From Eukaryota sp. GEM-RC1 (Eukaryota), in the NCBI GenBank assembly GCA_040285855.1, contig JAUFOQ010000010.1, positions 1,984,001 through 2,048,000 on the forward strand: DNA of 64,000 bases. The letters run 5' to 3'. The notes beneath the pieces are model-generated. The model saw only the letters and a list, made by a program, of their open reading frames with translations. It ran no database searches and was not told the origin of the DNA. Below are positions 19,671-40,870 of the stretch, in pieces (position 1 is the first letter of the stretch; each line of letters opens with the position of its first letter). The translations under genes were made by a program, and so were the position numbers.

Positions 19671-20526
19671 TTTCTTTCTAACTGATATTGCTTAGAAGAC
19701 ATGACATTCTTTTCACTGGTTTGAACAATCGTCATCCGTTTCAGCGAAGTTATTTTCCCCTGACATTGTAAGAGAATCATACATCCCCATAGTTGTGCTA
19801 AAACTCATGTGAGTGAACATACAGATCGTTTTCTACATTACTATGGAAAATGACTTACGGACAATAGATACCGGCTGTCAAGTTCAGATTTTTGGAGATG
19901 CCCGATAAATCGTGTTCCGGTATAGAGTAGTATTAAATTGTGTTTTGTGTTTCAATGATAATAATAACCATATCATTTATAACAAGTATTGTGTTTATGG
20001 TCGTCTTGCAACGTACCAATATCTTTCAATTTTCCGAGAACATACAGTAATAGTTGTAAATTTTGAATGAAACTGTCAACAAGTCACTGTGATGGCGCCC
20101 CAGCCCTTTGTGAATTCAGTTATAGCAACGAACGATCACAATTAACAAAAGTGTAGCATCGTATGTCAATCAATAATCTTTCAGACATACGACCATCGAT
20201 TTGGCTCAAAAGCAAACGGTTTGCAAGACGAGAAATGTCTTGAGTGACAACGTTCACTGTAGATGGGGCCTACAAATAGACATGGTTCACTTAACAGCTG
20301 ATTATATCTTCCACAAGAATTGCATATCAGATTTGTATGTCCTATTTGATTTCGGTACTGAAACCCAAAATACATGAAGAGGTCCAATGTCTGACCAAGT
20401 TTGCCTTTAAAACGGATGAACAAATACAAAATTGAACATAGTGCTGTTTTCGAAGACAGAGTCATTAATGTTGTTCCATTGTTGTCTGTCTTAGCGATGT
20501 AAAGGGAGTGTGTAATTTCAATCCCA

Positions 20527-21104
20527 ATGTCTTCACCCCAACAACATAGTTCTATTTCTCGCCATACTTATATTGAAGATAATAGAAAAAGATACGGTTT
20601 GTCTTCATTTACGAGTATCTTATATCTATTTCTTACAGTCATACTCATTTTAGTTACTCTTAGCAAGCGAAGAGTGACCATTGCTTCCATGGCTAAAGAA
20701 CTTGCCAATACCTATCAGTGTGAGACTTTTTTTTGTACTATAAGTGAGTCTGGTAATGTAGTGGTACATTCTTCAGATAAGTTCGCTCCTCTACTACAGT
20801 CCAGTGTCTTTCATGAATTATTACAGCGCGCACTGTATCCATCTTATACACCGTAATTTGTCAAGCGTAATTCCAACAACTTAGGAGTTCTCGACTCCTA
20901 TCAGGCATTTTGTATCAATTGCTCTCACACACTGTAAATTACATGATGCTGAAGAATCAAGTATCGTCATCTCTGTATGAATGGAGTGTACCCTTACAAC
21001 TACACTTCGTCTTGCTAATCAATCAACACCAGCAGCTTTTTTTTACTGACTATACTACCCTTTTTGAGGTCCACGGTCCTTTCCCTGGATTAGTTTCTTT
21101 CTAA
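20527..21104 (+). CDS. SRF-type MADS-box transcription factor, copy 8 (introns 20597-20653 and 20853-20884)
   Basis: GTTTGT...CTCATTTTAG (57 nt) and GTAATT...CAACTTAG (32 nt). Splicing gives RKRYVTLSKRR...DKFAPLLQSSVFHELLQRAL, matching SRF MADS plus the following SAM helix. Confidence 0.75.
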
Positions 21105-21949
21105 CTGATATTGCTTAGAAGACATGACATTCTTTTCACTGGTTTGAACAATCGTCATCCGTTTCAGCGAAGTTATTTTCCCCTGACATTGTAAGAGAAT
21201 CATACATCCCCATAGTTGTGCTAAAACTCATGTGGGTGAACATACAGATCGTTTTCTACATTACTATGGAAAGTGACTTACGGACAATAGATACCGGCTG
21301 TCAAGTTCAGATTTTTGGAGATGCCCGATAACTCGTGTTCCGGTATAGAGTAGTATTAAATTGCGTTTTGTGTTTCAATGATAATAATAACCATATCATT
21401 TATAACAAGTATTGTGTTTATGGTCGTCTTGCAACGTACCAATATCTTTCAATTTTCCGAGAACATACAGTAATAGTTGTAAATTTTGAATGAAACTGTC
21501 AACAAGTCACTGTGATGGCGCCCCAGCCCTTTGTGAATTCAGTTATAGCAACGAACGATCACAATTAACAAAAGTGTAGCATCGTATGTCAATCAATAAT
21601 CTTTCAGACATACGACCATCGATTTGGCTCAAAAGCAAACGGTTTGCAAGACGAGAAATGTCTTGAGTAACAACGTTCACTGTAGATGGGGCCTACAAAT
21701 AGACATGGTTCACTTAACAGCTGATTATATCTTCCACAAGAATTGCATATCAGATTTGTATGTCCTATTTGATTTCGGTACTGAAACCCAAAATACATGA
21801 AGAGGTCCAATATCTGACCACGTTTGCCTTTAAAACGGATGAACAAATACAAAATTGAACATAGTGCTGTTTTCGAAGACAGAGTCATTAATGTTGTTCC
21901 ATTGTTGACTGTCTTAGCGATGTAAAGGGAGTGTGTAATTTCAATCCCA

Positions 21950-22289
21950 ACGTCTTCACCCCAACAACATAGTTCTATTTCTCGCCATACTTATATTGAA
22001 GATAATAGAAAAAGATACGGTTTGTCTTCATTTACGAGTATCTTATATCTATTTCTTACAGTCATACTCATTTTAGATACTCTTAGCAAACGGAGAGGGA
22101 CCAATGCTTTCATGGCTAAACAACTTCTCGATACCTATCAGTGTGAGATTATTGTTGTACCAGAACTTCATGTTTAGAAATCGAAATCAGTCTGGTAATG
22201 TAGTGATACATTCCTTAAACACGTTTGCTCCTCTATTACAGTCGAGTGCCTTTCAAGAATGGTTACAGGGCTCACTGAACCCAACTTAA
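21950..22289 (+). pseudogene. MADS-box copy 9, ACG start, diverged and truncated 3' part
   Basis: Identity to the unit drops after about 22077 and is lost by about 22300. Confidence 0.6.
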
Positions 22290-23115
22290 TAGCCTTAAAT
22301 TACACTGGCTTATACCTATACTGCCTTGTATTACAATGACTTCTTACTTCAACAATCAGAACTGTTAATCTGGCTTGTTCCAAAAATCAATTGAAACGCT
22401 CTCAAATTGCTCAACACTGCGTATTTAATCATTTCAATGTTTGCGGTGACGTTACTACCCTTATGGAATTGGACAATGTTTTCCAATATCGACGTTGTTG
22501 TTGTTTTCACCAAGTTCACAAATGCGTACTTCCATACAGAACGCAGAAATCGTTTGGTTGAGCTCCTCGTAAGTGGAGAATTGTATCTGTCGTTTGAGAT
22601 ACTCAAAAGAGCCTCACCAGATGCTTCAAGGTCAGGCTCGGAGAGATGGGGCGACCTGAGCAAAACAGGATCCATTATAAGCTGGATGGTTACCTGATGT
22701 TTCTTGTCTGTGATAGACATATACACATCTAATTCCTCGAGGAAGGTTTGAATATCGTTCCTTGTGAAGGTTCTTCGGCGGGATTAAGAAAGAAAGATCT
22801 TATAGAATAATTATTGTTGCCGATAAGTCAACATTGATAAGAATAAAGAAGAAAAAAAGAGGTTATTGTTAAAAGAGAAATGCTTCGGACTAAGTGACAC
22901 TTCATCAGACGTGAAGATATCTACTAGGTATCGCTATCTTCACTAACACTCGTTGACAATGTCAACTGGACATCGCTCGCTCGCAAGAATCAACTCTCTT
23001 TTCAGTGACAGATCACTTTCTGAAATAGAGCAAGACCGATTTTGTGCTACAGTTGTTGTAAGATCTCGTGAGTCAACATACATTGCGTTTTATGCACAAT
23101 TATTACAATAATTTA

Positions 23116-23545: not shown

Positions 23546-24677
23546 CAGGCTTCACTAAAGTAGTCCAAAATTCCAAATTAAAGTAAAGTGAAGTACTTTA
23601 CTTTACTTTAACAAATAAAGTTACTTTAAGGACATTAAAGTTGGTCCGATCTCAACTTCTCTCCCATACATTCTCTCCTGAAAATTGAAAATAGATTTCC
23701 ATGAGATTCCTTCCTTCCGAAGAATGGAAGTCAGTTTGTGAAGTTGTATAGGTGTTGGGAAAAACATGTGCCCGCATACATTGCAAACTGTGCGACCAAA
23801 ACTACTCAGTCAATAGATGGGCTATGGAGGTACACTACGTCCCGAATCTTTATCCTAAACGACCAGATGTGGTTCAAGTTGAAGAAGTGAACCTAGATGA
23901 AGATCTGGTCCAATTTGATCCATGGTGAAAATGATATATTCTTAAGCGCTCACCCGCTTTCCATTAAGAATTGTAGTTTTTGGTGAGTTTCTACAATAAA
24001 ACATGTATAATAATGTACTTTTGGTGTCACACAGTTCATTTACTAGTGTTGCACGAAACGTTTCGGCGTTTCCAACGTTTCCGTTTCCGATACGTTTCAG
24101 AAACGTTAATGACTCACAGGAAACGCATCCAAAACGTGAATAAACGTTTCAAAACTTGATGATTCCCGTAAATTTGTGTAAAAGTATTCCGTTTATTGAA
24201 CTTTAATACTCTTTATATGAATGTTACCAATACAATTGATGCACAGTAGCAAACCACTAAAACGAAAACACTTACAGGCATAACTGTAGTTTGTAATCCA
24301 ATTTTCTCTCACAATTTCTTCACATTGAGAATTACAATCCATACAACATGTATAACACCTGCACGTACAACAAAGAACTGATAAAAATCAATTATACCCG
24401 TTAAACGGAATTTTTTCAAAGAGAGAATGTTGGTGGAGAAAAATTGAGATGTAGAACCATAAAATGACGTTTCGGAAACGGAAACGCGATTCCGAAACGT
24501 AAACGCGTTTCCACAAGAATTTTCACACGTTTCGCGCAACACTATTATTTACTGTGCTCAAAAAGCCAAGTAATCAAGATTGAGGTTTGTCACTTTACAG
24601 TTTAAAAAAATCTTAAAGTAAAGTGAAGTAAAGTAAAGTAAAGTCACATTATCACTTTACTACTTTAGTGAAGCCTG
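23546..24677 (+). mobile_element. Non-autonomous hAT element (deletion derivative)
   Basis: Perfect 19-bp TIR CAGGCTTCACTAAAGTAGT, perfect 8-bp TSD AACACCAC (23538-45, 24678-85), subterminal AAAGT repeats, and a BED-finger-like remnant (EEWKS...CKLCDQNY...EVHY) at 23701-23925. Confidence 0.9.
24044..24544. mobile_element. hAT-type MITE nested in the preceding element
   Basis: TIR TAGTGTTGCACGAAACG / CGTTTCGCGCAACACTA, 8-bp TSD TCATTTAC/TTATTTAC, and subterminal AAACG/CGTTT repeats. Confidence 0.88.
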
Positions 24678-25142: not shown

Positions 25143-27429
25143 GGTCCAGACTAAATACACACCCCCACGGACGACAATTTTTCCTTGACACAACAATTCT
25201 TCCCCTGATTGATTCCTTCTTATCTCCATCGATTTGCCTTATATATGTCATCCACTGTCAATCGTACATCTTGTTCCTTTTCCGTTGCAGAATTATTCCC
25301 TGAAGCGAGCTTGTATTCCAAACGCCAAGATCTTATCGAGTATATTCAAGACAGGGCTTTCTCCAGTAATTTTGCCCTTTCTATAAGCAGAAGTAATGAG
25401 AAATCTACGTTCTTTCTTTGTGATCAAGCCGGAGAACCTCGTCAACGCAAATCTAGTAATAATACGGGCAGTGAAAATCCTTCCATTACAGTTCAAAGCC
25501 GCTTAACCTCATCGAAAAGTGTGGCTGCCAGTTTAAAGTTATTATACGTAGAAAACTGCCTAATGGGATTTGTTTCAAAAATTTGAACAATGTAGCCAAG
25601 AAGAAGTTATCACAAGAAGTAGAATATGTCTGGTTCATTGATGAAGATAAATGTGTGTTTGAACATAATCATAACGTTGTTGATTGTAAAGCTGCAATTG
25701 CCACATTCAGGCGTTCATGGTTGAGCGATGAAGCAATGGAGCTTGCTGCTCAGATGTTGAAGGCATTAATTCCGGCACCTGATGTTCTCGAGTTTCTCAA
25801 ACTTAAGTACTCAGATTGCCCATTAAATGTCAAAAACATTCATAATCTCAGGACTAATCTCTACCAAACAGATCCAGATATTATACGTGAAATTGATCAG
25901 TTAATTAAGGAAATGCACAGTTCCAGCTACGTTGTGGAGCTCAAATGGACAGAAAAAAAAAGAAATTTCTCATTTTTTATTTATTCACAAAAGAAATTTA
26001 CACTTATGGAAAACATATCCATATGTTTTACAACTGGATTGTACCTATAAAACGAATGTTAAAGAAATGCCACTATTAGCAATTGTCGGTACAACACCTC
26101 TCGAAACCGTTTTTCATTTAGGATTCGTGTTAATTTCAGGCGAGAAAATTGTTGATTATGATTGGTGTCTTCAAGTCATTAAAAAAATTCTGAATCCATT
26201 TTTGCCTGCAGTTGTAGTAACTGACAGTGATAGAGCCATTATGGCATCTATCAAAAACCAACTACCACATAGCTGCCACATTTTGTGTTCTTGGCACTTG
26301 TGGAAGAATATTTGTGAAAAAGCTGCTGGATTTCTATCTGGAACTGAAGGAGGTTTCCAAATTTTGCTTCCACGATTGAAGGAGGTCATTTTGGCTAGAA
26401 CAGAACCAGAATATGATGAACTGGAAAGACGTATTAAAGAAGATTATTCATCATTCCCAAATCTTGTTTCTTATCTCAACAAGCAACTGTTCAATTTGAA
26501 ATCTCATTTCGTTCATGCCTTTTTAAGAGACGTTATTCACCTGAATCAATTGACATCGTCTAGGGTTGAATCAGGTCATAGATCGATGAAAAGATCTTTA
26601 AAAATATCTACTTTAACCATTACTAGGGCAGTCCAGAAGATTACTAATTTTCTGGAAAGAAAAAGTATTCAATTTAATGAGAATTACGACGATGAAAGGA
26701 GAAAACGGTCTATTCCTTTAGGAAAGATCAACGTATTTCACAAAGTCCACCGTGAAATACCACGATCAATTTTGGTCAAAGTGTGGAACAATATCATGGA
26801 AATTCAAGCACAAGGTACCAATCAATCAAGTGAATGTATCTCCCAATGCTTGAAACAATTAGGTCTTCCTTGCTGCCACGTCATCAAACAGCTGGTAGAA
26901 GAAAACCTTTTATTGAAGAGAGAAATCAGAGGAATGGTTCCAATCTCCAACAACTTCAAAGGGAACTTTCAGAAGTAAATGAATATCGAGTTCTACGTAT
27001 TGATGACTTTCATCCCCAGTGGCATTTAGCAATTTTCACCAAGTACGACCCTGTAGTCGACCAGAGAAAAGAAGAAGTTGCTGAAAGAAAGAGACTACTG
27101 CTAAAGAGATTAACTGAGGAAGTAGAAGGCTTGAATGAAGTTGAATTCACGAGTTTAGAAACTCAAGTGGTGAACGTCCTCAACAACAACAAGGAAAGAA
27201 TCAAAGAACCTGAAGCAATTACTGCTACCAAGGGAAGAAAGAAATCAGACAGAGATGCATTCAACAAGAAGGCAAGAAGAGATTAGATAAAATAGTGTAT
27301 AACAGTATCAATAAAGGAAAGTCTGTGTTTGCAAGGAAAGTAGATGAAGAGAACAACGGCAACCAAGAAAAAGAATTGTTGTGCGAGAAAGAAAATGTCG
27401 TCCGTGGGGGTGTGTATTTAGCCTATCCC
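25143..27429 (+). mobile_element. Mutator-like element (MULE 1)
   Basis: Perfect 26-bp inverted core CTAAATACACACCCCCACGGACGACA (25151-76 / 27396-421), GG termini, flanking direct repeat AAAAATAT, and an internal transposase. Confidence 0.92.
25245..27286 (+). CDS. FAR1/MULE DDE transposase with SWIM finger (frameshifted)
   Basis: LDCTYKTN, VVVTDSDRA, CSWHL, SRVESGH and C..CLKQLGLPCCH across ORFs 25209-25586, 25583-26050, 25932-26978 and 26834-27286. Confidence 0.9.
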
Positions 27430-27645
27430 AAAAATATTTTTAGCCAGCCGGCTTGCAGCTGGAAATACTTCTGTTCTGGACCAGTATGGGAAGAGAGTGA
27501 AAATAAGCGAAATCAGGGAGTGAGAATAGGGCGTCTCCATAAACAATGTTCAAAGAACTTTACTAGTCTACACTGTGTTCGCGTAATATAACGCCTTGTT
27601 GCACGTAAAATGACTAACTTTTGAAGACAAAAGATATGAATGTGT

Positions 27646-28620
27646 CTAATTAGAAAATGTTTTAACCCCTTGTGGTGTACATGTGCAGAGATTGCAATTA
27701 ATCTGTTTCTCCGTCATTAAAATATGAACTGAAAAAAAATGTGCAATTGTAGAGTCCGCAAGTATATACAATGTACTGACCCTTAGGTGAAACCAAAAGT
27801 AAATTAAATAAATACTGCCCTTGTGTGGTGGTCCAGTCATCACCCACCACTGTACACCCTGTTCCATTAATGGAGTTAAGAAACGGTTAAGTCTTCTAAC
27901 AATTCCTGCTAAATTAGCTGAATATAAGTGTCCTTTAAAGTTTTTGCGGTAATAGGTTCGTATTGCCCATTAGTTGCAATCTTCACAGTGAAGTTGAAGG
28001 ACCTTGATTCAACCAATTTAAAACTAAGGAACTTCTCTGCTATCAAATATTCCATAGACTTGTACAATTCTTTCAGCCACATATTGAGTTGGGTTTTCTT
28101 CTGTTTCAATCTATGTACTGCTTCCTCTAAAGTTGGATGAATGATGTTTTCCTCAGTAAACTCTACATCAGGAACAATTAAAAGGGGTCGAGATACTTCG
28201 TGACGCAGATGGTCTTCACAACTGGAAAGGTAGTGTTGATCTCCAAACAACACAAAAATTATTTCTCAATGATAAAAACAATAAAAAATAGACAAAAATA
28301 CAAAAAAGATGAAAATTTAATAATATAATATTCTGTAACTTTAATGTGTTCATATATTAAAATTATCGCTTAATACCACCAATCAATGTCATATTCCAAT
28401 AGCTCTCAATTCTGAGACGTGATCAGATTCTACATTCTGATTTACCACTAGCATTGAGTGTTTACCATATGCAAAGTGTATCTGGAACTTTCATCATGTC
28501 AAATTTGTTGTCGTTGATTGCGTATTTTGATCACGTCTCAATTTTTACACAATCATAGTTAATTGGTCCATCTATTTGACGACCAATTCAAAGGTACTGG
28601 ACGTAAAAAAATGTGTTTCA
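27646..28620 (-). pseudogene. Decayed hAT-like transposase C-terminal fragment
   Basis: QWW...YILADSTIAHFFS...MTEKQ resembles the hAT dimerisation motif (WW...LSIPASSA.AER.FS). An SNRWTN remnant lies upstream. Many stops. Confidence 0.35.
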
Positions 28621-29519
28621 CAGAAGATGACTATGAATGTTGTGTAAACTAAGTACTGTAGATTTATAGCATAATGTTACTAATTTGATATTCTGTTAAC
28701 TGAAACATGCATTATTCGAGGCATATGATCACTTTAATAGACAAAATGCACTTTCGGGAAAAAATACAAAAACAGACTTTAAAGTTTAAACCCAAATAAA
28801 AAGTACAGAAGAATACAACAAACTGTATTATCCAACTATGTCTCAAAACCTGAACATGAAAAGCTGAAGGAGATGACAGACACCGAAGGAACTTCTAATG
28901 AGGCTGTTATTGTCTATCAGGATTCGGAGTGATTAGTTGAAGAGATTGATGTTGAATGATCGACTGATCACAGATCTCCCGTGTGTGCAGAACATATGAG
29001 AAAAACAAAATATAGGCTACAGTACCCACCACTGGTGAATTGTTAATAGTAGTTTTGTTTTTGTGTGTAGTTTGGGGTGAGTTATAAAAGTGCTTAATAA
29101 CCGTATTTGCATTTCATAAACGGTTATCACAAATGCCCTGTGCTATAACACGTGATGGTATTTTATCACATTTTCTTATTGTGAATGTGTGATAACGTAT
29201 CATCACAAATGGTACAGTAGTTGTTTGTTATCAATAGCTCGGTACAAACGATACGATTCAACCACAACATTTGATCTAACTGATCTGCAGCTTCCTTTTG
29301 TCTACGTGTTTTTCACAAATCTAAACATTGATATCCCAATTGAAATTTTCAATACAAATTATCATAAACAAACGATCGAAAATTGATACATCAAAGCACA
29401 TGATTCGTATTCAACATGTATTACTTTTTGTTTGGCTTCTTTTTCTTATCCTGATTGGATAAAACACAAAAAAAACTGATTGGATTATCCCACAAATTAT
29501 TGGTTCAAGAAAACATGCA

Positions 29520-30147
29520 TTAGGAAAACCTCAGCTAACTTTGATACTCATCCTTCGGTGTCTGTATTATCGCCTAGTGGAAGGTAATATGTTAGCTTTG
29601 CGGTCATGGACCCTTTGTAGGAAGTACCCAACGGATGAGGCAACATCTGTTTGCTCTTCCTGGGATCAAAACTTGTAAAAAAACCTCCAGCCGATCTGGT
29701 GCCTCTTTCTCGAAAACGCTTAACGGTGACTGACTGCATTCCTAATACTGCTCCTGCTGAGACGGCTCCTGCCAAAAGGGAACACTCGAACACGCTTTTG
29801 ACGTCAGGAATAAAGCCATACTTGACGCAAAAATCTCTACCTTCTTTTATCCACATGGTATACCTTTCAATGTTGCTAGATCAGTTGAATACCGTGAAAT
29901 GGTCGTTTTAGATGGACTTGAGGACGATCTATATTAGAGTAGAATGAGTGCTCATGCACTCTGTTTGATATGCTTGAAGTTTATAGTTTCTGGTGAGTTT
30001 CTATGACAATAAACACTACGTAACACTGTAAAAGTATGAGGTTCTAATGGACGTTTCGGAAACGTTTTCCACGTTTGCAATCCGTTTCCAAATGCAAATT
30101 CCACGTTTCGTGTAACACTAATTTAGGAAAACCCCAGCTAACTTTGA
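29520..30147 (+). repeat. 25-bp direct repeat pair (29520-29544 and 30123-30147)
   Basis: TTAGGAAAACCTCAGCTAACTTTGA vs TTAGGAAAACCCCAGCTAACTTTGA, one mismatch. Confidence 0.9.
29545..30120 (+). mobile_element. Truncated hAT derivative with one TIR
   Basis: BED finger remnant C*LCGHGPFVGSTQRMRQHLFALPGIKTC and the motif FFYPHGIPFNVARSVEYREMV. It ends CACGTTTCGTGTAACACTA, the same TIR family as the 24044-24544 MITE. Confidence 0.75.
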
Positions 30148-30290
30148 AGGGACCATTCTTTCTCACTACTGTGGATTTCATTTCAAATGCATAATTCTAC
30201 AGTCACACCTATATGCACTATCACCACAGTTTGACACATTGTGCCACTCATTTGCAAGCCTTTTAGGACGAGCTAACTTATAAGATTCAG
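30123..30290 (-). ncRNA. Putative Fanzor omegaRNA scaffold
   Basis: Non-coding stretch directly 3' of the Fanzor stop, with nested stems ACTGTGG (30168-74)/CCACAGT (30224-30) and TGCATA (30188-93)/TATGCA (30212-17). Boundaries are inferred. Confidence 0.5.
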
Positions 30291-32311
30291 GATTCCGGTT
30301 CTTCATTCTCTACTTGTGAGTCTTTGGGTACATCTTTCTGGGCCTTACTTGGGCAATTATTTCTATCATGTCCTGGTTGTCTACATATCGTACATGTACG
30401 AGGACTTTTAGGAGGCACAGGTCTTTGAGGACACTTTGCCGTTGTATGGCCTTCCATATGACAAAACTGACACTTACTCACACTCTTCTTCTTGGGAACC
30501 TGATCTGTAATCCCACCATCCTCGATAGTTATTGTTTGAGATTTTGGTCTCTCCAGGACAGCAGGTCTACCTTGACCTTGGATAATTCCATTTACAATGT
30601 TATAAATGTTAATAGCAGAGTTGAAGTCTCTATTCCAGAGGACATGACATTTAGCACACTGAACTAAGCCCCATGGTGAGACTTTGTTGCTCTGCAACCT
30701 TGCTTTCATGAATGGCAACTGTTTGGTCCATTCATCTTCAAAATTACGTTTCACAACATTGTCTAATTGATTGTGTTCCATAATTTCTTTTTTCAATTTC
30801 TTCTCCTCCTTCTGTAACTTCTTCTTCCACAGAGGATCAATGACTTTGACAAAGTCAGGATTGGAACAGATACCTTCCTGGTTTTCAGCAGCACAAGCAG
30901 AGCAACATTTGCTTGTCATAAATTCATCAACTAAGAAAACTTTAAATCCAAATTTTCTTAGCAAGTTTCGAAGAGTAGCGCCTTTTACTGTACTTGCCTT
31001 ACCCCTTCTTCTTCGGAATTGAGTGTCAGTCCAATCCCCAAAACCAACAACGACTTCATCTGGATCACCATATTGGAGAGCTAATCTGTGGACCAAGTTT
31101 TGTTCACTTCGTTCCTTTCTTGAATATTGGGTAAGGCGTCTACGTCTAAAAAATTTGTCTTCATAAAGGCCTTCTGTTGTAGCAGGTATTTGTTGAGTTG
31201 GTCCTTTCTTAGGTAGTTTCTTTGATGATCCTTTCTTAGATAGATTCTTTGATGGTCCTTTCTTTTGATGTAATCCTTCAGCAGTTGCTTTTCCAGTTGT
31301 GGTTGATCTCATTAATGCACAGAAAACTTCATTGTTAACAATGTATCTTGAAAATTCTTCCAATTTACATGATTTTCTTCTTGGAGTATCAGAACTGTAG
31401 GAATCCAGTATTTTCTGACCATTCGACACACTCTTCTCAAACTCAGTTGAGTACCTCTGTAAACGTTCACTTTCGGTCAATTCGACAATTCCTCTGTACG
31501 CTTTCTTTCAAGTTTTTTGAAATTTCGTTTTTTCTTTCGTTCTTTTTTAGCTTTTTTCTTTTATTCTTTCTTTGTCAATTTTTTTGGTACTGTAATGATT
31601 GATTTTTTTCTTGGTTTCCATTTAGATTTGTTAATATCTGCCTTCCTCTCCTCAGCAGTGTATCGGAACACCTTCCATTTGTCACGCCTTTTCCACTTTA
31701 CAGGTTGTGGGTTAGTGTTTTGCTTCCAATCATTTAATTGATTTTTCATTTTTTCAAACTTCCCCTTTTCTTAGAAGACAATGGAGCAATCTTTCTCTTT
31801 CTAACTTGGGTAACTGGCTTGGGCTCAATTTCCTTCTCACCTGAGGAATCATCCTTCTCAACTGACGAATCAATAGATTGTTCATTGGAAGTAAGATCAA
31901 TTTCTGTGACATAAGCATTGGCCATTCCATTTTCTATCAATTGTTTTGTTTCATCAACTTCAAATTTCTCACACGCCTCTTCCTCATCAGTTTTTAAACT
32001 TGCACAATACATGAGATCATGTTGGTTGGGATCAACAGCAACAATTCTCTTAGATTTTAAATTCAGTTTTTCAATTTCATCTTCACCTAAGGAATCAATA
32101 TATCGTTCATTTGAAGCAAGATTAACTGCTGTAACATTTTCACGGGCATTTCCATTTTCATCAAGTAAATCTTTCCTCATCATTAACAAACTACAACTTA
32201 AACCGTCTGACGAAATTGAAGTGTATTTAAAGTCATAGGATAATGACTCTGGAATAGCCTGAGGTTTTAATACTGAATTCCAAATAAGTTTCCGTACTTC
32301 ATTATAAGTTA
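30287..32311 (-). CDS. Fanzor1 (TnpB-like) C-terminal half: RuvC I-III, zinc finger, two CCHC knuckles (interrupted frames)
   Basis: SISSDGLSCSL, RuvC-I IVAVDPN, FRYT..ER, VVVGFGDW, RuvC-II LVDEFMTSKCCSAC, CAKC and RuvC-III WNRDFNSAINI. Frameshifts near 31760 and 31482, and an in-frame TAA at 31561. Confidence 0.92.
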
Positions 32312-34393
32312 GGGAAATCGTCAATTTACATCACATAAGTAAATAACAATTCATTTAACATCAATACTCTTTTACTAATGACTACAACTAATACAACTCT
32401 TCAACAAGGTCATTCTTATACAAACATCCAACACTTGCAGCATGATGTTTACTCTTGGTTCCTTTCGAGTGATAAAAGCTTCGACATAACTCAGAAAAAC
32501 CAGAACCGTTGGGATATACGATGTGGCTCCTCTACACCTTGTCCCTGTTACATCCACTGTTTTCAGTACACAGACACCCACGAATGGGAAATAAGAAAGT
32601 TTGTCGATCACATTGCTTCCTGCCAATCCTTATGTTTTACGACCTTGCCTAAACAAATCTGTGCCATTTTAATGGCAGAAGAAGTAAGAGGTGGAAAGAT
32701 TACCAGTCCATCTGTATTTGCTAGGAAGCTGAAAACCAAGTACTTTATTGATATAAGTCCGAGTAAAGCCTGTCGAGCTCTAGAGGCCACTAACGAACTA
32801 CTTTATGGTTCTTTAGATACCTCATACACCTTTCTGGAACCCTTTTTCCAAAGTCTCAACTCCACTAATCCCGACTCTCCTTTTAAGCTGAATGTTGCAC
32901 CTGATGGCACATTTGAGCGCTTTTTCTTTACTTTTCAACCTCTTGTGAAAGGATTTGAGTTTTTAAGGCCTGTTATCGTGATAGATGGAACTCATCTGAG
33001 GTCGAAATACAAGGGAACATTGTTGGCTGCTGCTGGCATTGATGCCAACGGACATTTCTTTCCTATAGCTTTTGAAATTACTCGAACGGAAAATGTAATA
33101 AATTGGAGAAGCTTTTTGGAGAATTTGAATGACAATTTTGCAATCAACGACAAAACAGTATTTATTAGTGACAGAAATCCAGCCATATCCCGTACGCTGG
33201 TCGAAGTTTTTGGTGAAGAAACCTACCACTCTGTGTGCTGTAAACATCTCAGTGACAATCTCTCGTCCAGAGGTGGAAAGAAAGCAATGAAATTGTTTTG
33301 GAAATGTGCAAGAGCGAGTACGTTAAACGAATTTGACCGCTATTGGCAGCTCCTTCAAATCCAGTGCCCAGTGGGTTATACTTATTTGGAAGAGTCAGCT
33401 CCGAAAGAATCTTGGTCGACAGTACACTTTGAAGGGAATAGATATGGACAACTCACCTCCAATATCATTGAATCCTTAAATGCATGGCTTCTTCCAGTTC
33501 GCTCTTTGCCAGTGACTTCAATGGTTAACGGTATCTTTGAAGCAATGACTCATTTGTTCAGAAGAAGAAAAGATGAATCAATGAAGATGCATGGAGAATT
33601 CGTTGATGATGTTGAAGAGTATTTGTTGCCGTCGATATTGAGAGCTCGCAGTTTAGAAGTAACCACGTTCTCAGACAATTTGTATTCCGTGAGAGAAAAC
33701 GAATTGGTGTTTTCTGTGGATCTGAAGTACAAAACGTGCAGTTGCGGATTCTGGAAACAACATGATGTGCCATGTATTCACGTAATGTCAGTTTCGAGAC
33801 GTGTTAGAATTCACCCCAGATCTTTAGTGTCTCCCTATTATTTAGTTACTAATTTTAAGAAGACGTATGATGGCGAATTTTATCCAATCGACTATAGAAG
33901 GAATATCGAAGAACTAGAAAGTGATGTGTTTCCTCCTTTAGATACAGTAATGCCAGGTCGTCCGCCAATTTCACGTAAGGACAAGTACTCACGTACTAAA
34001 CGCTTTAATCAAAAGAGATTCGATGAGAAGGATGCGAGTAGCGACAGTGAAGAAGTAGAACCTGACGCAGCAGCAACGGAAGAGAATCAGGAAGCAATGC
34101 CTCTCTCCCCACGTAGATGTGGTCATTGTAGAATTATTGGGCACGACAGAAGAAACTGCCCAGAGTGGATTGTGTTGCAGCAAGGTGCCAGCAGTATGAT
34201 ACCAACAGTAGTAGATGGTTCAGCACCAAGACCACGACAACGTAAGTGTAGAAATTGTGACCAAGTTGGTCATGACAGGAGAAACTGTCCAACGAAATAG
34301 GTTTTATGAGTTGAAACAATGATTGCAAAATAAAGTAATATTAGATGAAAAATGCAATTAATGTATATTAGTGATGAAATCTGCATAAATCCC
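32312..34393 (+). mobile_element. Compact autonomous MULE (MULE 2) inserted antisense inside Fanzor
   Basis: Degenerate 23-bp TIRs GGGAAATCGTCAATTTACATCAC / GGGATTTATGCAGATTTCATCAC (15/23). Flanks TTATAAGTTA (32302-11) and TTATAGTTA (34394-402). Confidence 0.88.
32378..34300 (+). CDS. MuDR/MULE transposase with SWIM and two CCHC knuckles, intact 640 aa
   Basis: VIDGTHL, FISDR, CCKHL, SNIIESLN, SWIM CSCGFWKQHDVPCIH, CGHCRIIGHDRRNC and CRNCDQVGHDRRNC. Confidence 0.95.
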   Translation: MTTTNTTLQQGHSYTNIQHLQHDVYSWFLSSDKSFDITQKNQNRWDIRCGSSTPCPCYIHCFQYTDTHEWEIRKFVDHIASCQSLCFTTLPKQICAILMAEEVRGGKITSPSVFARKLKTKYFIDISPSKACRALEATNELLYGSLDTSYTFLEPFFQSLNSTNPDSPFKLNVAPDGTFERFFFTFQPLVKGFEFLRPVIVIDGTHLRSKYKGTLLAAAGIDANGHFFPIAFEITRTENVINWRSFLENLNDNFAINDKTVFISDRNPAISRTLVEVFGEETYHSVCCKHLSDNLSSRGGKKAMKLFWKCARASTLNEFDRYWQLLQIQCPVGYTYLEESAPKESWSTVHFEGNRYGQLTSNIIESLNAWLLPVRSLPVTSMVNGIFEAMTHLFRRRKDESMKMHGEFVDDVEEYLLPSILRARSLEVTTFSDNLYSVRENELVFSVDLKYKTCSCGFWKQHDVPCIHVMSVSRRVRIHPRSLVSPYYLVTNFKKTYDGEFYPIDYRRNIEELESDVFPPLDTVMPGRPPISRKDKYSRTKRFNQKRFDEKDASSDSEEVEPDAAATEENQEAMPLSPRRCGHCRIIGHDRRNCPEWIVLQQGASSMIPTVVDGSAPRPRQRKCRNCDQVGHDRRNCPTK

Positions 34394-36120
34394 TTATAGT
34401 TATAGGGAAGATCCCTACAAACTATTTCGTGAAACCATTGCGTATCGAACCTGATATCATTTGGAATTAAAGATTTAGACAATGGGAAAGGATTGTTTGC
34501 TCTTACACCAGGACAATAGTCTTCAATGAGACGGTTCAAATACAGTGCATGACTTAAAAAGTATAACGGATCACTCTTTTCGGCATAGTAGATCGTTTTC
34601 TCCATCTTTCCTTCAAAATAATTAAACAAATAATTGAAGAATAATAAACTCAAGTGAGATTCCGGATTGGTAAAAACTTGCTTGTCATCAAAATTAATTT
34701 TGGATATTTCACCATTAATGATCAATTCTCTAACTTCATTAATCCTTTGACAGAGTTCTTGTCGTTCAGTTTTGTCAGTAAGAGCTTCCATTCTCTCTTT
34801 CTTTTGAGTAACCAAATTAAAGACTTGAAAAACATACTCATGAAAGTGTTGGCTCATGTTGTTCTTATAATTGGTAATAATTTCGGTTGCAACGTAACCG
34901 AGAGGATTAGACAAATATAGTCCACTTGGAAACACGATCCTATCTTTACCAACCATTTCACCAGCAGTTTCTAACAGAGGGATGTAGTTTGATAGGAAGT
35001 GTTGGGCGAACTCCTTCTTTGTAGTTGTTGTTTTTACATTAGAAATGATGTTTTTTAAAGAGTTTTCCACAGTTTTAATATGATCAGTACTGTTGAAAAA
35101 TTGGTGATTTGGAATCCACATCATGGCCAACAGTTGTCCCATTGGACCCAACTTAAAGTAAGCTCCCCAGTCTGGTAATGCAAGTTTGGTAGTTTGAATT
35201 TTAGTAAAAAGGTCAAGTTCAGGTTCACCAGTTTCATTTTCATCACCGTCTTCTTCTAAAATTTGGCTGTCTTCTTCTGAAATTTCGGATTCAATTGTAC
35301 GATCCAAACCAAAATCAGGGTCTGAAGTCACAGGCAATTCAGTTTCTTCTTCTAATTGTTGAGGCACAAACTCTTCACTTAAAATTTCTGTTTGTTCAGT
35401 GTCTGAAACTTCAGTGTCTGTTTCAATTTCTTCTTTAACAGTGAAAATGTAGTCAGATGGAGGTAGTATCTCTTTGACCTTGTCGAAAATTAGAGAGTTG
35501 TGAAACTTAGTAACGAAAAAATGTTTCAACATATGTGTACCACGAACTCTGACTTGATGAGCTCTCTTAGCACAAGATTCCATCCAATTCGCTTTAGTCT
35601 TTGATACAACATTATCTAATCGTTTCTTCACCGCCTTCATTGGTGGTGGTTCTCTTAATTGTTGCTTCTTTTCATCGAGAAGATCAAATAAAAGGTATTG
35701 TATCAGAAACAACTTATTGATTGAGTTCAATAACAAAGTGGCTCTCGAAGTGGCTCTCGAAGTTTTAGATTCCCAAACTTCATTAAATTTTGTTAATTCT
35801 GCTAACAATCGAATCTCCATAACAGCCTTGGGTTTTAGTTTCACAGATGGCGCTTTGTTTTGACGTTCATCAGTTTTAACCTTAATTTCTTCATCTGACA
35901 CTAGAGGATTGTTTAAAGAATGAAATATTCTCTTAAGGAAGATATTTTCCTTGTCAAAACTTTCAAATGTTCTTGAATGATTATTCATGTCCATCATAAT
36001 TGTTGTCACGTTTTCCAAAAACCGACCTCTTCTAAAGACATACAACTTCTTCAATACTGAATTCAAGTCAAGGGAATAAAAGGACCAATTTCCGTTGGTT
36101 TGCACCATCTTTGGAACCAA
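34394..36120 (-). CDS. Fanzor1 N-terminal half (WED/REC, from about 35640) plus upstream linker
   Basis: Fanzor1-like motifs LSNPLGYVATEIITNYKNNMSQHFHEYV, DPLYFL..LYLN..IE and NPFPL...IP..IRFDT. Joins in frame to the C-terminal half once MULE 2 is removed. Confidence 0.8.
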
Positions 36121-38620
36121 GATGGAAGAGAAGAAATGTAATCATCAATTGTATAATCAATGTCAATTTCTAATTTTTTACGTGATACAAAAAACGGAAA
36201 AGTATCTAAATGCCAATCATAACTTATTAACAAACTGGGCTTGTTAAGATTTAAAAATGTAATGAAATTTGTTAACATTGATTTTTCAGTTTTAAACATG
36301 TGAACTACACAATTAGGAAGTGAAATTTCTGAAACATTATGGGTGAATAGGTGAGTTTCATTTGCAAATTTATCATGGGTAAACTGAAGAGAGATTGACA
36401 CAATCGGATCTAAATCAGGATCACCCTGAATTTCAAAAGTAGTATCCTGAATTTGTGGAATACCTTCTGAAGTTGATTCAATCTCTTCGTCTACTTCTGG
36501 CTCCTGTTTAACTCGAACGACTTTAAGATTCAAGCGTTCAGGATCTGAGATCACACTTTTTATCTCAATTAAGCAGAACTTTTGTGGTTGTTTGGGTTCT
36601 TGTTCTGTAATTGATGGTTTAGGAGTTGGAGACGTAGGAACGGGTTCAGATACGGTGGTCACAGAAATGTTAGTTTGAGGAGTGATACCAGTTGATACAA
36701 GGGAGTTGGTTGTTCTGGATTCCTTTTGTTTAATTTGAGGTGAACCTCTTGGTGATGCAAGTTTGGGTTTACTTTTTTTGGTGCTTAAACCAGTGGATGC
36801 TTTAGTGCTAGCTAGACGCAAACCTGTGAGAAACGCAGGAACAGGTTTTGATACAGTCGGTGGCAATAAGCTAATGGCAGAAACTTTAGTTTGAGGAGTG
36901 GCACCGGTTGAAACACTTGAACTGGACAAACGTTTTGGAGGGACGGCTGGCATTTTTGGCACATGCGACAAATCAACAGGACTAAAAGTTTCAAAATGTT
37001 CCAAAATTTTACTTCGAGACTCATGAACATCAATAGTGGTGCTACACAGCAGTTCTTTAACATCAGTCCACCTTATGACCACATATTGATCTAAATTCAT
37101 TAAAAGTTCAATGTATTCGAGAACACAAAAACCAGAGTCAGTTAGAGTATGTTTGATATTTGATGGAATAAATTCTATATTTCTGGTTCCACAGATTGAC
37201 AACACTGAATAAATTTGTGACACAATTGAAAATAAATTGAAAGAAGTTGGTGCAACTGGCGTTTGGTTAGCAGGAAATTCTCTGGCATAATCATCCTCAA
37301 CGTAGGTCGGATCAATGAATAAAATATGACTTGTATGAGATGAAATGATCAGAATAATTAAACCCCAGTGACGACCATCAGCAGTAACATCACACATTGC
37401 ACTATTGACAGGAACAAGTAGCATTTGTTGGTTTTTGTTTTGACCACATTGGAAGAATTTCTGCGTCAAAAAATCTGAAAATGGATATTTATCATAGTAT
37501 TGGTCACCATATAATAACGGATATAAATCAGTTGGCCTAATTACATAGTCATAAAAGATTAAACCTTTTGATTCCACAAGTATTTTGGAATATTTGATGA
37601 ACAATTGATCGTCAACACAAGTAAACAATTTCTGAATCTGTTTACGGAGATCTGCAGCATTAAGTTCATTGTTAACTTCACACAACCTTTTTCAAAAAAA
37701 ATCAGTCGATAGATTAGACAAACTTTCATGTGTTGTAAGAATTTGTAAGTACTTTTGAACATATGCAATGACATAAGTTCCACAATCACTTGGAGTCTGA
37801 GATTTCGGGACGTTTGCATAACGTATCGTGAAACTTGGCATTTTTTCTCTGAATTTATCAACAATGGGGTTCAAAAAGTTGGAGTTCAGTATTGGATCAA
37901 TAACTGTTGCAACATTTATAGAATAACACCCCAATGAGATCCTGAAAATGTGCGTGACGCAGACAGGGCAGTCATACCGTCATTGATAGGAGCAATGAGG
38001 AATCGAGTACCGGTGGTTTTAGCAGTAAGAATTTGACGATCTACAGTTTGTTTATGTTCAGGTGAAAGATCAGTAATTAATCCATTCATCACACTAGAGG
38101 GGATACTGTATAGATCAAATGCTAGTCTAGCAGAGTTAAAAAGGTACTGACAATATTGAAAGATAGCATCGTCATCTATCCATTGGCCAGGATTCAGATA
38201 CTCTAGGGAGTCTTTGGACAACGGTCCGGGATTGGATTCCACGTCACCATCCATGGTTAAGTCTTCTTTGAATGGGGGACGGGAGGAGAAAACTATACGT
38301 AATATGAGACACAAAGCAGAAATAGATGATGAAACAACACAAAGGATCATCTGAGGAATATTACGAGACGAAGTCGAGGGTATGATGGAAAGCACATGAA
38401 CACAATTCACATGGGCTGTTTCACTAGCGGAAACGAAAATAATTCTCCAACATCTCATTATACTACCTTGTTCTTGAGGAGCGTGTGAGAGTGAAGTAGT
38501 AAGGCGGCAGCATGCGGAAGAGTAACTCCAACATCTCATTATACTACCTTGTTCTTGAGGAGCGTGTGAGAGTGAAGTAGTAAGGCGGCAGCATGCGGAA
38601 GAGTAACTCCAACATCTCAT
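36040..38620 (-). CDS. Polyprotein N-terminal region: 2A peptide, two Ulp1/C48-like protease domains, S/T/P/K linker, PolB-type 3'-5' exonuclease-like domain
   Basis: DLTMDGDVESNPGP; LNPGQWIDDDAI...PIND...GSHWGV...VIDP...QTPSDCGTYV; a second domain PVNS...HWGLII...IDP...TDSGFCV; and DPIVSISL...EKSMLTNFITFL...PSLLISYD...FPFFVSR...(P)LDL. Two frameshifts and one in-frame TGA (37692). Confidence 0.7.
38222..38245 (-). other. 2A (StopGo) ribosomal skipping motif DVESNPG|P
   Basis: Exact match to D(V/I)ExNPGP, in frame directly before the first protease domain. Confidence 0.85.
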
Positions 38621-38816
38621 TATACTACCTTGGTCTTGAGGAGCGTGTGAGGAGTGAAGTAGTAAGGCGGCAGCATGCGGAAGAGTAACTCCAACATCTC
38701 ATTATACTACCTTGGTCTTGAGGAGCGTGTGAGAGTGAAGTAGTAAGGCGGCAGCATGCGGAAGAGTAACTCCAACATCTCATTATACTACCTTGGTCTT
38801 GAGGAGCGTGTGAGAG
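38445..38816. repeat. 81-bp tandem repeat, about 4.6 copies
   Basis: Units start at 38445, 38526, 38607, 38689 and 38770; near-identical, no spacers. Confidence 0.95.
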
Positions 38817-38968
38817 AATTGATGTCGACATTGAAAGTAAATGATTGTTTGACAAAGATTTCTTCCATCTATAGTAGGATATCTTACAAGTCAGTTACAT
38901 TTCATATAATTCCAAACGTAAGAGCTACTAGCTATCTCCTACTTACTAGCTACTAATTTTGATAGTTT

Positions 38969-39122
38969 CATCTTGTGTTACAAATCTTGTGTTACACATC
39001 TTGTATTACACATCTTGTATTACAGATCTTGTATTACAAATCTTGTATTACAAATCTTGTGTTACACATCTTGTGTTACACATCTTGTGTTACAAATATT
39101 GTAAAACACATTTTGTGTTACA
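38969..39122. repeat. 14-bp minisatellite (C/A)ATCTTGTRTTACA, 11 copies
   Basis: Directly readable in register from 38969. Confidence 0.93.
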
Positions 39123-39663
39123 AAAAGCACTTGTAGTTTTGTAAATTCAAATATAAAATAGTCAACAATTCAAAAGATCGAAGGTGTTCTTTTCAGTCAA
39201 CTCTAGACATTAATAGTGAATATCTTTCTTGGCTGGGTTAACACATTGATTAGTGAAGACAGATAAGAGTCATTTATCACAAGACTGAATGTTTAAATTT
39301 TGGTTAAAAAATCTCGGTAATCTTTCTTGATGTTAGAAGGAATGAAATGGTTGTCATTACAAATGTTGTATTTCAGAAGATCCTGGCAGTATCTTCTTGA
39401 CTAAGTCCTAAGAACAAATACCTCCATACAGCACGTACTTTTGAGTCTTCTGAGGGTTTTCGGGGAAGAGATCGAAAATCTTCGTGTGAATGAAGAAGAT
39501 CCCAAGTCAAACACATTGTGATGTAAAAGAAGTCTTCAAGAACGGAAGAGAAGGCGAGGGAGATGAGGGAAGATGTTAGGTCTAAAATGTGAAGGTCTAA
39601 AATGTGGATCAGACCTTTATGCAGTGAAAACAAACCTCACTACAACTTCCATCACTGATATGG

Positions 39664-40356
39664 ATGGAAACCGGAACTACAACTCCTAGTGCCTTTCGTA
39701 CTCCTTCTCCAAGAGGGGGTCGATTGAGTTCTTTGAGATATGCATATCCTGCTCCTTCTTCAAGTCCCGAACATCTTTATCGTCGGAGTCCTGTAGCCAA
39801 TCTTCGCACTTCTGGTCGAAATGACCTATCCAGTGGCTCTGTTTCTCCTCCATGTACTAAATATCGTCCAAAGCATCCTGAGAAGCATAGAGGTTCACCA
39901 CTCTTCTCCAAATACTCTGACAGATCTCTCCGTCCAATTACTGTCCCTGCACCGCCTTCCTCCCCTGGTTTCCTCTACAACCCCAACCCCAAGATCGCCT
40001 CCAAAACCACCCCAGCATTCTCCTTCACCAAAGCTGGTGATCTCCCTTCTCTTATACCCGCCAGCACTCACACAGAACCAGCAACTCCTCTCAACCCCAA
40101 CTACTCCCGTGTTTCCTCTCGTTTAGACACCCACACCCCCGTCATCCCCAAGACTATCCCCCATGACTTGGACGAGTACCTTCTTCCCAAACGTCGCACT
40201 CATACTGAACTTTCTGATTACACTCCTACTCCTTCTAAAGACTCTTGTCCAGCCATGTCCTTAGTTGGAGGAGGAGAAGCTAGAGGGGAAGGACTAATGA
40301 TCCGAAGTTCTTCACCACTCAATCGTTTTCTCCTTCTGATAGGTCAGTTTCGGTAG
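39664..40356 (+). CDS. Pro/Ser-rich protein, possibly ODF3/SHIPPO-repeat-like
   Basis: 230-aa ORF with PSSPGFLYNPN...TPAFSF type repeats. Confidence 0.45.
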   Translation: METGTTTPSAFRTPSPRGGRLSSLRYAYPAPSSSPEHLYRRSPVANLRTSGRNDLSSGSVSPPCTKYRPKHPEKHRGSPLFSKYSDRSLRPITVPAPPSSPGFLYNPNPKIASKTTPAFSFTKAGDLPSLIPASTHTEPATPLNPNYSRVSSRLDTHTPVIPKTIPHDLDEYLLPKRRTHTELSDYTPTPSKDSCPAMSLVGGGEARGEGLMIRSSSPLNRFLLLIGQFR

Positions 40357-40870
40357 TGCTAAGTCAGAGTGATTCAGTGATTAGGGAAGCTAGACGAGCT
40401 CATAAGATGTTGATGGGAAGCGACTTGCATGCTAGGATTTTGGAGTTGATGAGGAAACGTCATTAGTCAATTTATTGAAATGTTATTGATTGTTATAAAT
40501 GTAGTTTATTCTTATTTTTAATAATGATAGTAATATCATTTCTGGTCAGACTATTTAAAAATTGCTAGTTTTTGTATTATTTACTTGTATTATTCTAGAT
40601 TGTTCTACTCAGATTCAACCTACGAACAAAGCTATAAGATCAAAATTATAGCAAAACAGTTACAATCAAAAGATCCTGTTTTGCACAGAAATGACTTTGA
40701 TAGTACAACATATCGATAGTCATGGTTGCAATTTTAGGAAACATTAAATTACTTTAGATAAATTGAAAAATCGTACCAAGGAAAAAATACATCAAAAACA
40801 ACTAATAAATCAGGCTAAAAACACTATAAAAACTAGAGTGACAAAAATATAAAACTAGAATTTTAAATAA

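What the first reader, a model, noticed from the sequence alone, without database searches (positions are those of the whole stretch)
29520..30290. omegaRNA-like region ends in a 25-nt sequence duplicated 600 bp away, with a hAT TIR in the guide position
Seen, on the minus strand: Fanzor stop, about 140 nt with nested stems, TCAAAGTTAGCTGGGGTTTTCCTAA, then AT plus TAGTGTTACACGAAACG (hAT TIR), about 575 bp of hAT fragment, and a second copy TCAAAGTTAGCTGAGGTTTTCCTAA. Established: TnpB/Fanzor guides are the bases immediately beyond the element's 3' end. Inference, three models. (a) The repeat is the scaffold end, so the guide is the hAT TIR, which nearly matches both ends of the MITE at 24044-24544; this would be a Fanzor aimed at another transposon family in a repeat-captured DNA-repeat layout. 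(b) The scaffold ends at TTCAA, the following 21 nt are the guide, and 29520-29540 is a cis target. (c) The repeat is a long duplication made when the hAT piece was captured at a break. 25 bp is far longer than a hAT 8-bp TSD.
Basis: partly seen in the sequence, partly recalled or inferred. Interest (0 to 1): 0.8.

Follow-up and report, generated by a model that had tools for sequence, protein, structure and literature searches.

The report
Transposon scar inside Fanzor guide RNA
A real 25-base duplication behind a broken gene for an RNA-guided DNA cutter (Fanzor) is likely the scar left when a piece of another jumping gene landed inside the predicted guide-RNA scaffold, and is likely not a guide aimed at that jumping gene.

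Summary
The repeat is real (24/25; 0 of 200 shuffles exceed 22/25). With one homopolymer gap it runs up to the hAT-type TIR, so the 'AT spacer' belongs to the duplication. Removing the 576-nt hAT piece and one copy in silico joins two stretches that fold together: a 10-bp helix across the junction and a 13-bp helix from just after the Fanzor stop to 29499-29487. Only 13 of 2481 matched random segments pair as well; five real Fanzor1 ends score 2-21 of 300. So the hAT piece likely landed inside a ~200-nt omegaRNA scaffold, the repeat is scaffold-internal, and the element likely ends near 29487, with the guide beyond it. Models (a) and (b) are not supported; (c) is, in refined form. This copy is also split by a MULE and frameshifted. 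No genome, reads or DNA of sister copies were available, so the ends are predicted, and a haplotype or assembly chimera is not excluded. By-product: the gene belongs to a multi-copy Fanzor1 family with a 2A-like peptide and a 3'-5' exonuclease domain that I did not find in print.

The parts
30287..38320 (-). Broken long Fanzor1 gene: 2A-like peptide (38251-38222), two Ulp1-like protease stretches, PolB-type 3'-5' exonuclease domain, then Fanzor1 with RuvC D (32033), E (30925), D (30628) and C-terminal zinc knuckles; frameshifted. The 5' limit is approximate.
   Evidence: Pfam PF02902 (one stretch; the second by eye), PF03104, PF07282; PDB best hits SpuFz1 E 1.6e-8 and PpFz1 1.1e-5; motif places; tblastn of relatives across the pieces
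32312..34393 (+). MULE element inserted in the Fanzor gene, with TIRs and a 9/10-nt TSD pair that differ by one base in a run
   Evidence: PF10551 E 2e-15; ends and flanks
30121..30286 (-). 5' part (166 nt) of the predicted omegaRNA scaffold; 30286-30274 is the 5' arm of the closing helix, 30198-30168 the 5' arm of the long hairpin
   Evidence: folds of the rebuilt allele; predicted
30121..30147 (-). Repeat copy 1 (27 nt with the gap, core 30123-30147); loop and 3' arm of the predicted long hairpin; 30128-30121 is the would-be 8-bp TSD
29545..30120 (+). 576-nt hAT-like piece, sense on +, cut off at its 5' side, with an intact right TIR at 30104-30120 and subterminal repeats like the MITE's right end
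   Evidence: TIR scan; alignment to the MITE right end; frames; Pfam blank
29519..29544 (-). Repeat copy 2 (26 nt): 7 of the 8 TSD bases plus 19 extra duplicated bases; one substitution and one missing base against copy 1
29487..29518 (-). 3' part (32 nt) of the predicted scaffold; 29499-29487 is the 3' arm of the closing helix and the predicted element end
   Evidence: single copy in the window; predicted
29470..29486 (-). Predicted guide position: 11 unpaired nt, then a T8 run; no second match in the window
   Evidence: unpaired probability 0.91-1.0 for 14 nt; target scan; inferred
24044..24544 (.). hAT-type MITE of the same TIR family with its own 8-bp TSD (7/8), nested in a second hAT-type element 23546-24677 (8/8 TSD); a relative of the insert, no evidence that it is a target

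Best explanation
The 25-27-nt repeat is likely a duplication scar of a hAT-type insertion that landed inside the predicted omegaRNA scaffold of a broken Fanzor1 copy. Steps: (1, shown) a Fanzor1 gene ends at 30287 and is split by a MULE and by frameshifts. (2, shown) Copy 1 touches the hAT TIR, and the insert is cut off at its other side. (3, predicted) Before the insertion 30286-30121 ran on into 29518-29487 as one 198-nt folded RNA whose last bases close the terminal helix, as at related Fanzor1 ends; the guide then began near 29486. (4, inferred) A hAT element inserted with an 8-bp TSD into the 3' arm of the long hairpin. Its far end was later lost in a break repair that also re-copied 19 nt from just upstream of the TSD; a one-step capture of a hAT end at a staggered break gives the same layout and cannot be told apart. 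(5, predicted) The present RNA cannot rebuild the long hairpin, so this copy's guide RNA is likely dead, like its gene.
For: Repeat abuts the TIR with one homopolymer gap; the MULE TSD pair in the same gene shows the same kind of one-base difference. Rebuilt allele: helix 30193-30184 with 30125-30121 plus 29518-29514, 10 bp across the junction, mean probability 0.87-0.96 in 21 of 21 window settings; closing helix 30286-30274 with 29499-29487, 13 bp, 4 G-U, probability 0.92-0.98 in the 12 of 21 settings that start at or below 30316. Cross-junction gain -15.9 kcal/mol: reached by 0 of 150 shuffles, 13 of 2481 GC-matched window segments, 16 of 1837 random contiguous stretches; real Fanzor1 ends score 2, 9, 9, 18 and 21 of 300. 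The signal is on the Fanzor strand only (z -1.67 against +0.04). An end-of-stem score ranks 29487 first in 2 of 2 settings; in 5 of 5 related loci (two families) one of its top four peaks lies within 6 nt of the end seen by copy comparison. The TSD-dictated join is within 0.7 kcal/mol of the best of 144 joins. Abortive gap repair with template switching is known for hAT and other cut-and-paste elements (PMC3814204, passages).
Against: No sister copy could be read as DNA, so there is no conservation boundary and no covariation. The whole 198-nt RNA is only modestly stable (14 of 200 shuffles fold as well). The fold was noticed after the fact. With copy-2 letters the gain is weaker (-9.7 and -10.7; 6 and 9 of 150 window segments). 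With 44 nt or more of coding sequence added the closing helix mostly gives way (probability 0.01-0.27 in 7 of 9 settings); in the two folds printed its 3' arm pairs with 30320-30312 instead, which keeps the end within 2 nt. 198 nt is longer than the three solved Fz1 RNAs (75-150 nt, PMC11423790 section 5) and than the 65-106 nt from stop to end in the related loci. No TIR or TSD partner of 29487 was found at 36000-41000. The end-of-stem score ranked the true end first in only 2 of 5 controls per setting.
Confidence: 0.62

Rival explanations
1. The layout is an assembly or haplotype chimera: an allele with a hAT insertion and an empty allele were merged, which cut the insert short and doubled the flank. 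The scaffold reading would still hold for the empty allele.
For: A half insert with a doubled flank is what such a merge would give (inference). One-base differences in runs and frameshifts are common in this region. The two copies differ, as two alleles might.
Against: No direct evidence; ordinary repair explains the same layout. Neighbouring insertions have normal paired TSDs.
Confidence: 0.12
2. The repeat is the same kind of scar, but the scaffold is short (hairpin 30246-30232 plus stem 30230-30168), the guide is 30167-30150, and the repeat lies in plain flank.
For: In the sequence as it stands this is the best-scoring end, z -1.58, 11 of 200; a short hairpin plus one long stem is the SpuFz1/PpFz1 layout (PMC11423790 section 5); 119 nt from the stop is near the 65-106 nt of related loci.
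Against: In the rebuilt allele this stem has probability 0.00-0.08 in 21 of 21 settings, and it leaves both cross-junction helices to chance (about 0.5-1%).
Confidence: 0.1
3. The 25-mer is the 3' terminus of a rolling-circle (Helitron-like) Fanzor element; copy 2 is a separate 25-nt one-ended insertion into the hAT, and copy 1 is the end of the long element, inserted at the TIR edge.
For: Copy 2 starts with TC, ends with CTAA and lies between A and T; Helitron1 ends are 5'-TC and CTRR-3' (PMC3627910) and Helitrons insert in AT or TT (PMC10288648, passages). Cutting it out joins an upstream open frame to the hAT frame. 5'-truncated Fanzor-Helitrons with long variable TSDs are known (CRe-1 to 3).
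Against: Copy 1 is followed by A, not T; no strong subterminal hairpin (-0.2 and -1.1 kcal/mol); no Rep-helicase seen among the 12 ORFs scanned; it needs two insertions 600 bp apart, one exactly at a TIR; it does not explain the cross-junction helices.
Confidence: 0.06
4. One reading: the scaffold ends at TTCAA (30144), the next 21 nt are the guide and copy 2 is a cis target.
For: The repeat runs 21-23 nt beyond 30144, about where SpuFz1 cuts (after base 16-17 and 20-21, PMC10432273); an end near 30145 ranked third in 1 of 2 settings.
Against: Score -0.29 in the other setting; Fanzor1 RNAs are predicted to lack the TnpB pseudoknot; copy 2 repeats the last four 'scaffold' bases as well and is preceded by hAT DNA that matches no left flank (score 23, no better than chance); a cut in an empty site would not double 25 nt (inference).
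Confidence: 0.05
5. One reading: the repeat is the scaffold end and the hAT TIR is the guide, so the nuclease is aimed at another transposon family.
For: The TIR starts 0-2 nt after copy 1 and matches the MITE ends at 16/17 and 15/17; guides are the bases beyond the element end.
Against: The repeat end closes no stem (0.02, -0.12); the TIR adds little pairing; a hAT insertion with a TSD puts a TIR there anyway; the gene is broken; a TAM would have to lie outside each hAT copy (inference).
Confidence: 0.04

Closest known systems
Fanzor1 with its omegaRNA (SpuFz1, PpFz1, GtFz1; PMC10432273, PMC11423790, PMC10711439)
   Same: Best PDB hits; D-E-D with the shifted glutamate, zinc finger and RD motif; a structured non-coding region behind the stop, predicted to end in a stem
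   Different: Long N-terminal extension (2A-like peptide, Ulp1-like stretches, PolB-type exonuclease); predicted scaffold 198 nt against 75-150 nt; no TIR found; this copy is broken
Fanzor loci with secondary insertions (Ty3/Gypsy in Spu-1, PMC10432273; hAT near Fanzor1, PMC10530073)
   Same: Another transposon lies in or beside the Fanzor element; Saito et al. read such cases as past transposition, not as partnership
   Different: Here the insert is a cut-off hAT end with a 26-27-nt duplication, predicted to lie inside the RNA scaffold
Abortive gap repair and template-switch products of cut-and-paste transposons (Ac/Ds, P, Mutator; PMC3814204)
   Same: One intact end, internal loss, extra templated bases
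   Different: Usually both TIRs survive (own knowledge); here one is gone and the filler comes from the flank
CRe-1 to CRe-3 Fanzor-Helitron2 elements (PMC3627910)
   Same: Truncated inserts with long, variable duplications near Fanzor elements
   Different: There the Fanzor element itself is flanked by the duplication; here the hAT piece is, and no Helitron2 ends were found

Membership tests
Fanzor1 protein | RuvC D-E-D with DPG-type first motif and shifted glutamate before TS-C4 finger, RD motif | tested here: met
   DPN at 32033, G at the canonical E place (GDW 31039), E at 30925, RD at 30631; aligns to SpuFz1 and PpFz1; PF07282
Fanzor1 protein | TDG motif in the WED domain (PMC10711439) | tested here: met
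   SDG at 32210 in the window; the relative P0153 aligns to SpuFz1 here
Fanzor1 protein | Intact reading frame | tested here: not met
   MULE at 32312-34393 and frameshifts; some shifts could be sequencing errors, the MULE not
Fanzor1 omegaRNA | Scaffold conserved among copies up to the element end, variable beyond | not testable with these tools
   No genome held, none listed among runs, no close DNA in three collections
Fanzor1 omegaRNA | Last scaffold bases form a stem, guide follows unpaired | tested here: met
   For an end at 29487 in the rebuilt allele; not for an end at 30123. Prediction only
Fanzor1 omegaRNA | 7-bp first stem-loop (PMC11423790) | tested here: inconclusive
   A 6-bp hairpin at 30246-30232 forms in short windows but refolds in the rebuilt allele
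Fanzor1 omegaRNA | Expressed small RNA bound by the protein | not testable with these tools
   No RNA holder listed
hAT element (insert 29545-30120) | Short TIR of a family that makes 8-bp TSDs | tested here: met
   TIR shared with the MITE, whose TSD is 8 bp (7/8)
hAT element (insert 29545-30120) | Two TIRs and a paired 8-bp TSD | tested here: not met
   No left TIR (best 6 mismatches of 17 in 28401-29520); duplication is 26-27 nt, of which 7 of 8 TSD bases match
hAT element (insert 29545-30120) | Transposase domains | tested here: inconclusive
   Pfam 0 of 3 frames; no homologue in two searches; BED-like cysteines and histidine by eye only
Helitron1 terminus (25-mer) | 5'-TC, CTRR-3', inserted between A and T | tested here: inconclusive
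   Met for copy 2, not for copy 1
Helitron1 terminus (25-mer) | Subterminal hairpin | tested here: not met
   DNA folds of -0.2 to -2.1 kcal/mol
Repeat-spacer-repeat guide array | Several repeats with short spacers (own knowledge) | tested here: not met
   Two copies, 603 nt apart, no third in the window

The most novel reading that the evidence does not exclude
The hAT insertion turned this dead Fanzor copy into a guide source against hAT: RNA that ends shortly after copy 1 presents the hAT TIR as guide to intact sister Fanzors in trans, so one transposon family is armed against another.
Probability: 0.04. Interest if true: 0.75.

Novelty: new member of a known kind. Interest (0 to 1): 0.3.

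Why it matters
As flagged, little: the repeat is most likely a nested-insertion scar in a dead copy, and the idea of a Fanzor aimed at hAT loses its support. What remains useful is that the scar can be undone on paper and yields a testable ~200-nt omegaRNA with a predicted end and guide for a multi-copy Fanzor1 family whose protein carries a 2A-like peptide and a 3'-5' exonuclease domain. I found no paper on that architecture. If the exonuclease is active, this would be an RNA-guided cutter with its own end-trimming domain.

Tried and rejected
No whole genome is held. Sequencing runs: none was listed for 29301-39300, and no RNA holder was listed; this is no evidence either way. The 25-mer had 0 exact matches in viral and in metagenome contigs. 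No close relative as DNA: 0 of 595 candidate stretches in metagenomes, 3 of 112 in viral contigs and 4 of 384 in prokaryote genomes, all at 29-41% identity, 0 of 2 with P0005. Word-index protein searches found nothing for the Fanzor tail among longer proteins (0 of 3239) or for the hAT piece (0 of 141 and 0 of 4), so the native hAT sequence upstream of 29545 is unknown; an Atlas look-up for that piece was not obtained. Rfam 0 hits in 27400-40000. Sliding-window folding of the sequence as it stands: 3 of 80 windows below z -2, none in 30120-30290. A pseudoknot between 30189-30184 and TTCAAA was considered and dropped, since Fanzor1 RNAs are predicted to lack it. Rescue of the fold by copy 2 was tested and failed (pairing 0.00-0.02; the closing helix still forms at about 0.77). 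A look-alike of the repeat's start at 38962 (9/10) is not significant (4 hits of the motif in the window; score 23). Three ATTGG boxes at 29454-29499 are not rare (4 such clusters in the window). No left end was found. One search had a one-base slip in the join and was redone; the 'pre-insertion' rows carry the same slip and are replaced. Earlier-findings look-ups by place and by sequence were empty. Supplements of the papers were not opened; the Fanzor tables of PMC10432273 and PMC10530073 could list this family.

Full report
Observation. The letters are as described: stop at 30289-30287 on the minus strand, copy 1 at 30147-30123, the TIR at 30120-30104, 576 nt of insert, copy 2 at 29544-29520 with one mismatch. 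The pair is far beyond chance: the best 25-nt pair in 200 shuffles of 27501-32300 was 22/25. No third copy exists in the window at up to 8 mismatches. With one gap in an A run the repeat reaches 30121 and 29519, so copy 1 touches the TIR and ends in the 8 nt where a hAT TSD would lie; copy 2 has 7 of these 8. One-base differences of this kind also occur in the TSD pair of the MULE in the same gene.

The gene. The stop ends a Fanzor1: PF07282, best PDB hits SpuFz1 and PpFz1, all three RuvC acids in place. It is the tail of a long broken frame from about 38320 with a 2A-like motif, Ulp1-like stretches (PF02902) and a PolB-type exonuclease domain (PF03104). A MULE (32312-34393) splits it and frameshifts break it. 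The three closest protein clusters are 70-76% identical and hold 34 records; the 23 listed all come from one named public genome, Eukaryota sp. GEM-RC1. Records are often fragments, so 34 is not a copy number. P0005, from another named genome, carries 2A-like motif, exonuclease and Fanzor in one 1473-aa frame. The tools gave no DNA for these relatives.

The insert. Its TIR is that of the MITE at 24044-24544, which has an 8-bp TSD (7/8) and lies in a second hAT-type element with an 8/8 TSD. The insert reads as sense on the plus strand and is cut off at 29545; no left TIR was found. Its coding call is by eye, since Pfam and two protein searches were blank. A TIR resembles the TIRs of its own family under any model, so the match to the MITE is no evidence for targeting.

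What defines a Fanzor1 guide. In SpuFz1 the RNA runs 14-15 nt beyond the conserved end (PMC10432273, parts 1-2 of 8 read). Fanzor1 RNAs are predicted to include TIR and TSD in the scaffold, to lack the TnpB pseudoknot and to end in a stem (PMC10711439, passages). Solved Fz1 RNAs are 75-150 nt (PMC11423790, passages and section 5). I checked this on five distant loci of two families (L001, L002, L007; L004, L005; L003 is identical to L002 and L006 lacks the 3' end, so 5 of 7 were used): shared sequence stops 65-106 nt after the stop, at or within a few bases of the 3' arm of the last long stem. A simple end-of-stem score placed one of its top four peaks within 6 nt of that end in 5 of 5 loci, but first in only 2 of 5 per setting. 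On the window as it stands it favoured 30168-30162, gave -0.29 and 0.36 at TTCAA and 0.02 and -0.12 at the repeat end.

The test that decided. If the insert arrived with a duplication, the older allele was 30286-30121 followed by 29518 and down. That join, fixed by the TSD reading and not tuned, folds into a closed structure of 198 nt: a 10-bp helix (30193-30184 with 30125-30121 plus 29518-29514) that crosses the junction, and a 13-bp helix with four G-U pairs (30286-30274 with 29499-29487) that begins at the first base after the stop. The next 14 nt are unpaired (0.91-1.0). The pairing gained across the junction, -15.9 kcal/mol, was reached by 0 of 150 shuffles, 18 of 3405 matched window segments with self-overlaps allowed, 13 of 2481 without and 16 of 1837 random contiguous stretches. 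The five real ends scored 2-21 of 300 by the same measure. The TIR continuation gains -2.3. The junction helix holds in 21 of 21 window settings; the closing helix holds in the 12 settings that start at or below 30316 and mostly yields to another partner when more coding sequence is added. The end score ranks 29487 first in both settings. Against: the whole RNA is only at z -1.67 (14 of 200; reverse strand +0.04); with copy-2 letters the gain falls to -9.7 and -10.7 (5 and 1 of 150 shuffles, 6 and 9 of 150 segments); the fold was found after the fact; no left end matches 29487; no covariation could be tested.

Mechanism. Shown: repeat, TIR contact, truncation, broken gene. Predicted: one folded RNA before the insertion, ending near 29487. 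Inferred: a hAT inserted into the 3' arm of the long hairpin with an 8-bp TSD, then lost its far end in a repair that re-copied 19 nt of flank; interrupted strand annealing with template switching is known to delete and to capture sequence at such elements (PMC3814204, passages). One-step capture at a staggered break fits as well. In the present 820-nt sequence the closing helix can still form (about 0.77) but the long hairpin cannot (0.02), and copy 2 does not replace copy 1, so the RNA of this copy is likely dead.

Rivals. An assembly or haplotype chimera (0.12) cannot be excluded without reads. A short scaffold ending at 30168 (0.10) fits the SpuFz1 layout but vanishes in the rebuilt allele. 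A Helitron-like terminus (0.06) fits copy 2's borders (PMC3627910, parts 1-4 of 7; PMC10288648, passages) but not copy 1's, and lacks a hairpin.

Known and new. Fanzor1 and secondary insertions in Fanzor elements are known (PMC10530073, passages). This is a further such case, so the finding as flagged is ordinary. The protein architecture may be undescribed: 0 papers hold 'Fanzor' with 'metamonad'; 4 hold 'Fanzor' with 'exonuclease domain' and 16 hold four of five related terms (10 listed); none of the listings concerns this fusion by title or abstract start, and the one opened does not (PMC6338049, passages). 2A-like peptides are known from non-LTR retrotransposons (PMC3708506, search listing). 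The named relatives' genomes were assembled from long reads with short-read correction (PMC11316075, passages); how this window was assembled is not known. Supplementary Fanzor tables were not opened and could list the family.

Verdict. Observation confirmed; interpretation partly supported, (c) in refined form. Confidence 0.62, interest 0.3, new member of a known kind.

Noticed in passing
window 30287-38320 (-); P0005, P0171: Fanzor1 preceded in one frame by a 2A-like peptide and a PolB-type 3'-5' exonuclease domain (here also two Ulp1-like stretches); one 1473-aa frame in a named relative; no transposase seen. Not found in print. Worth its own follow-up.
   Followed up: partly
window 38445-38816 and 38970-39124: 81-bp tandem array (4.6 copies) in front of the 2A-like motif and a 14-bp array (11 copies) further upstream; the left end of the element may lie near them but was not found.
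   Followed up: partly
window 10454-22300: About nine tandem copies of a 1.42-kb unit, mostly 95-100% identical, with a short frame of unknown kind.
   Followed up: no
window 25148-27424: Second MULE with 54-nt TIRs and a frameshifted transposase.
   Followed up: no
window 27750-28250 (-): Remnant of another hAT transposase (DUF659, E 3e-5, below the curated cut-off).
   Followed up: no
window 23971, 29063, 29979 (+): A shared motif of about 20-30 nt followed by an ATAAA signal lies at the 3' side of three hAT-like pieces; possibly a common 3' UTR signal.
   Followed up: partly
window 29152-29206: 24-bp imperfect hairpin among repeated TTATCAC-like motifs, perhaps the end region of another element.
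   Followed up: no
window 28876-28890 and 29551-29565: Exact 15-nt inverted match between the start of the hAT piece and upstream DNA; may be chance (E 3.5).
   Followed up: no
L004, L005, L006, L007: Eukaryote-type Fanzor1 genes in contigs binned into bacterial MAGs, probably mis-binned.
   Followed up: no
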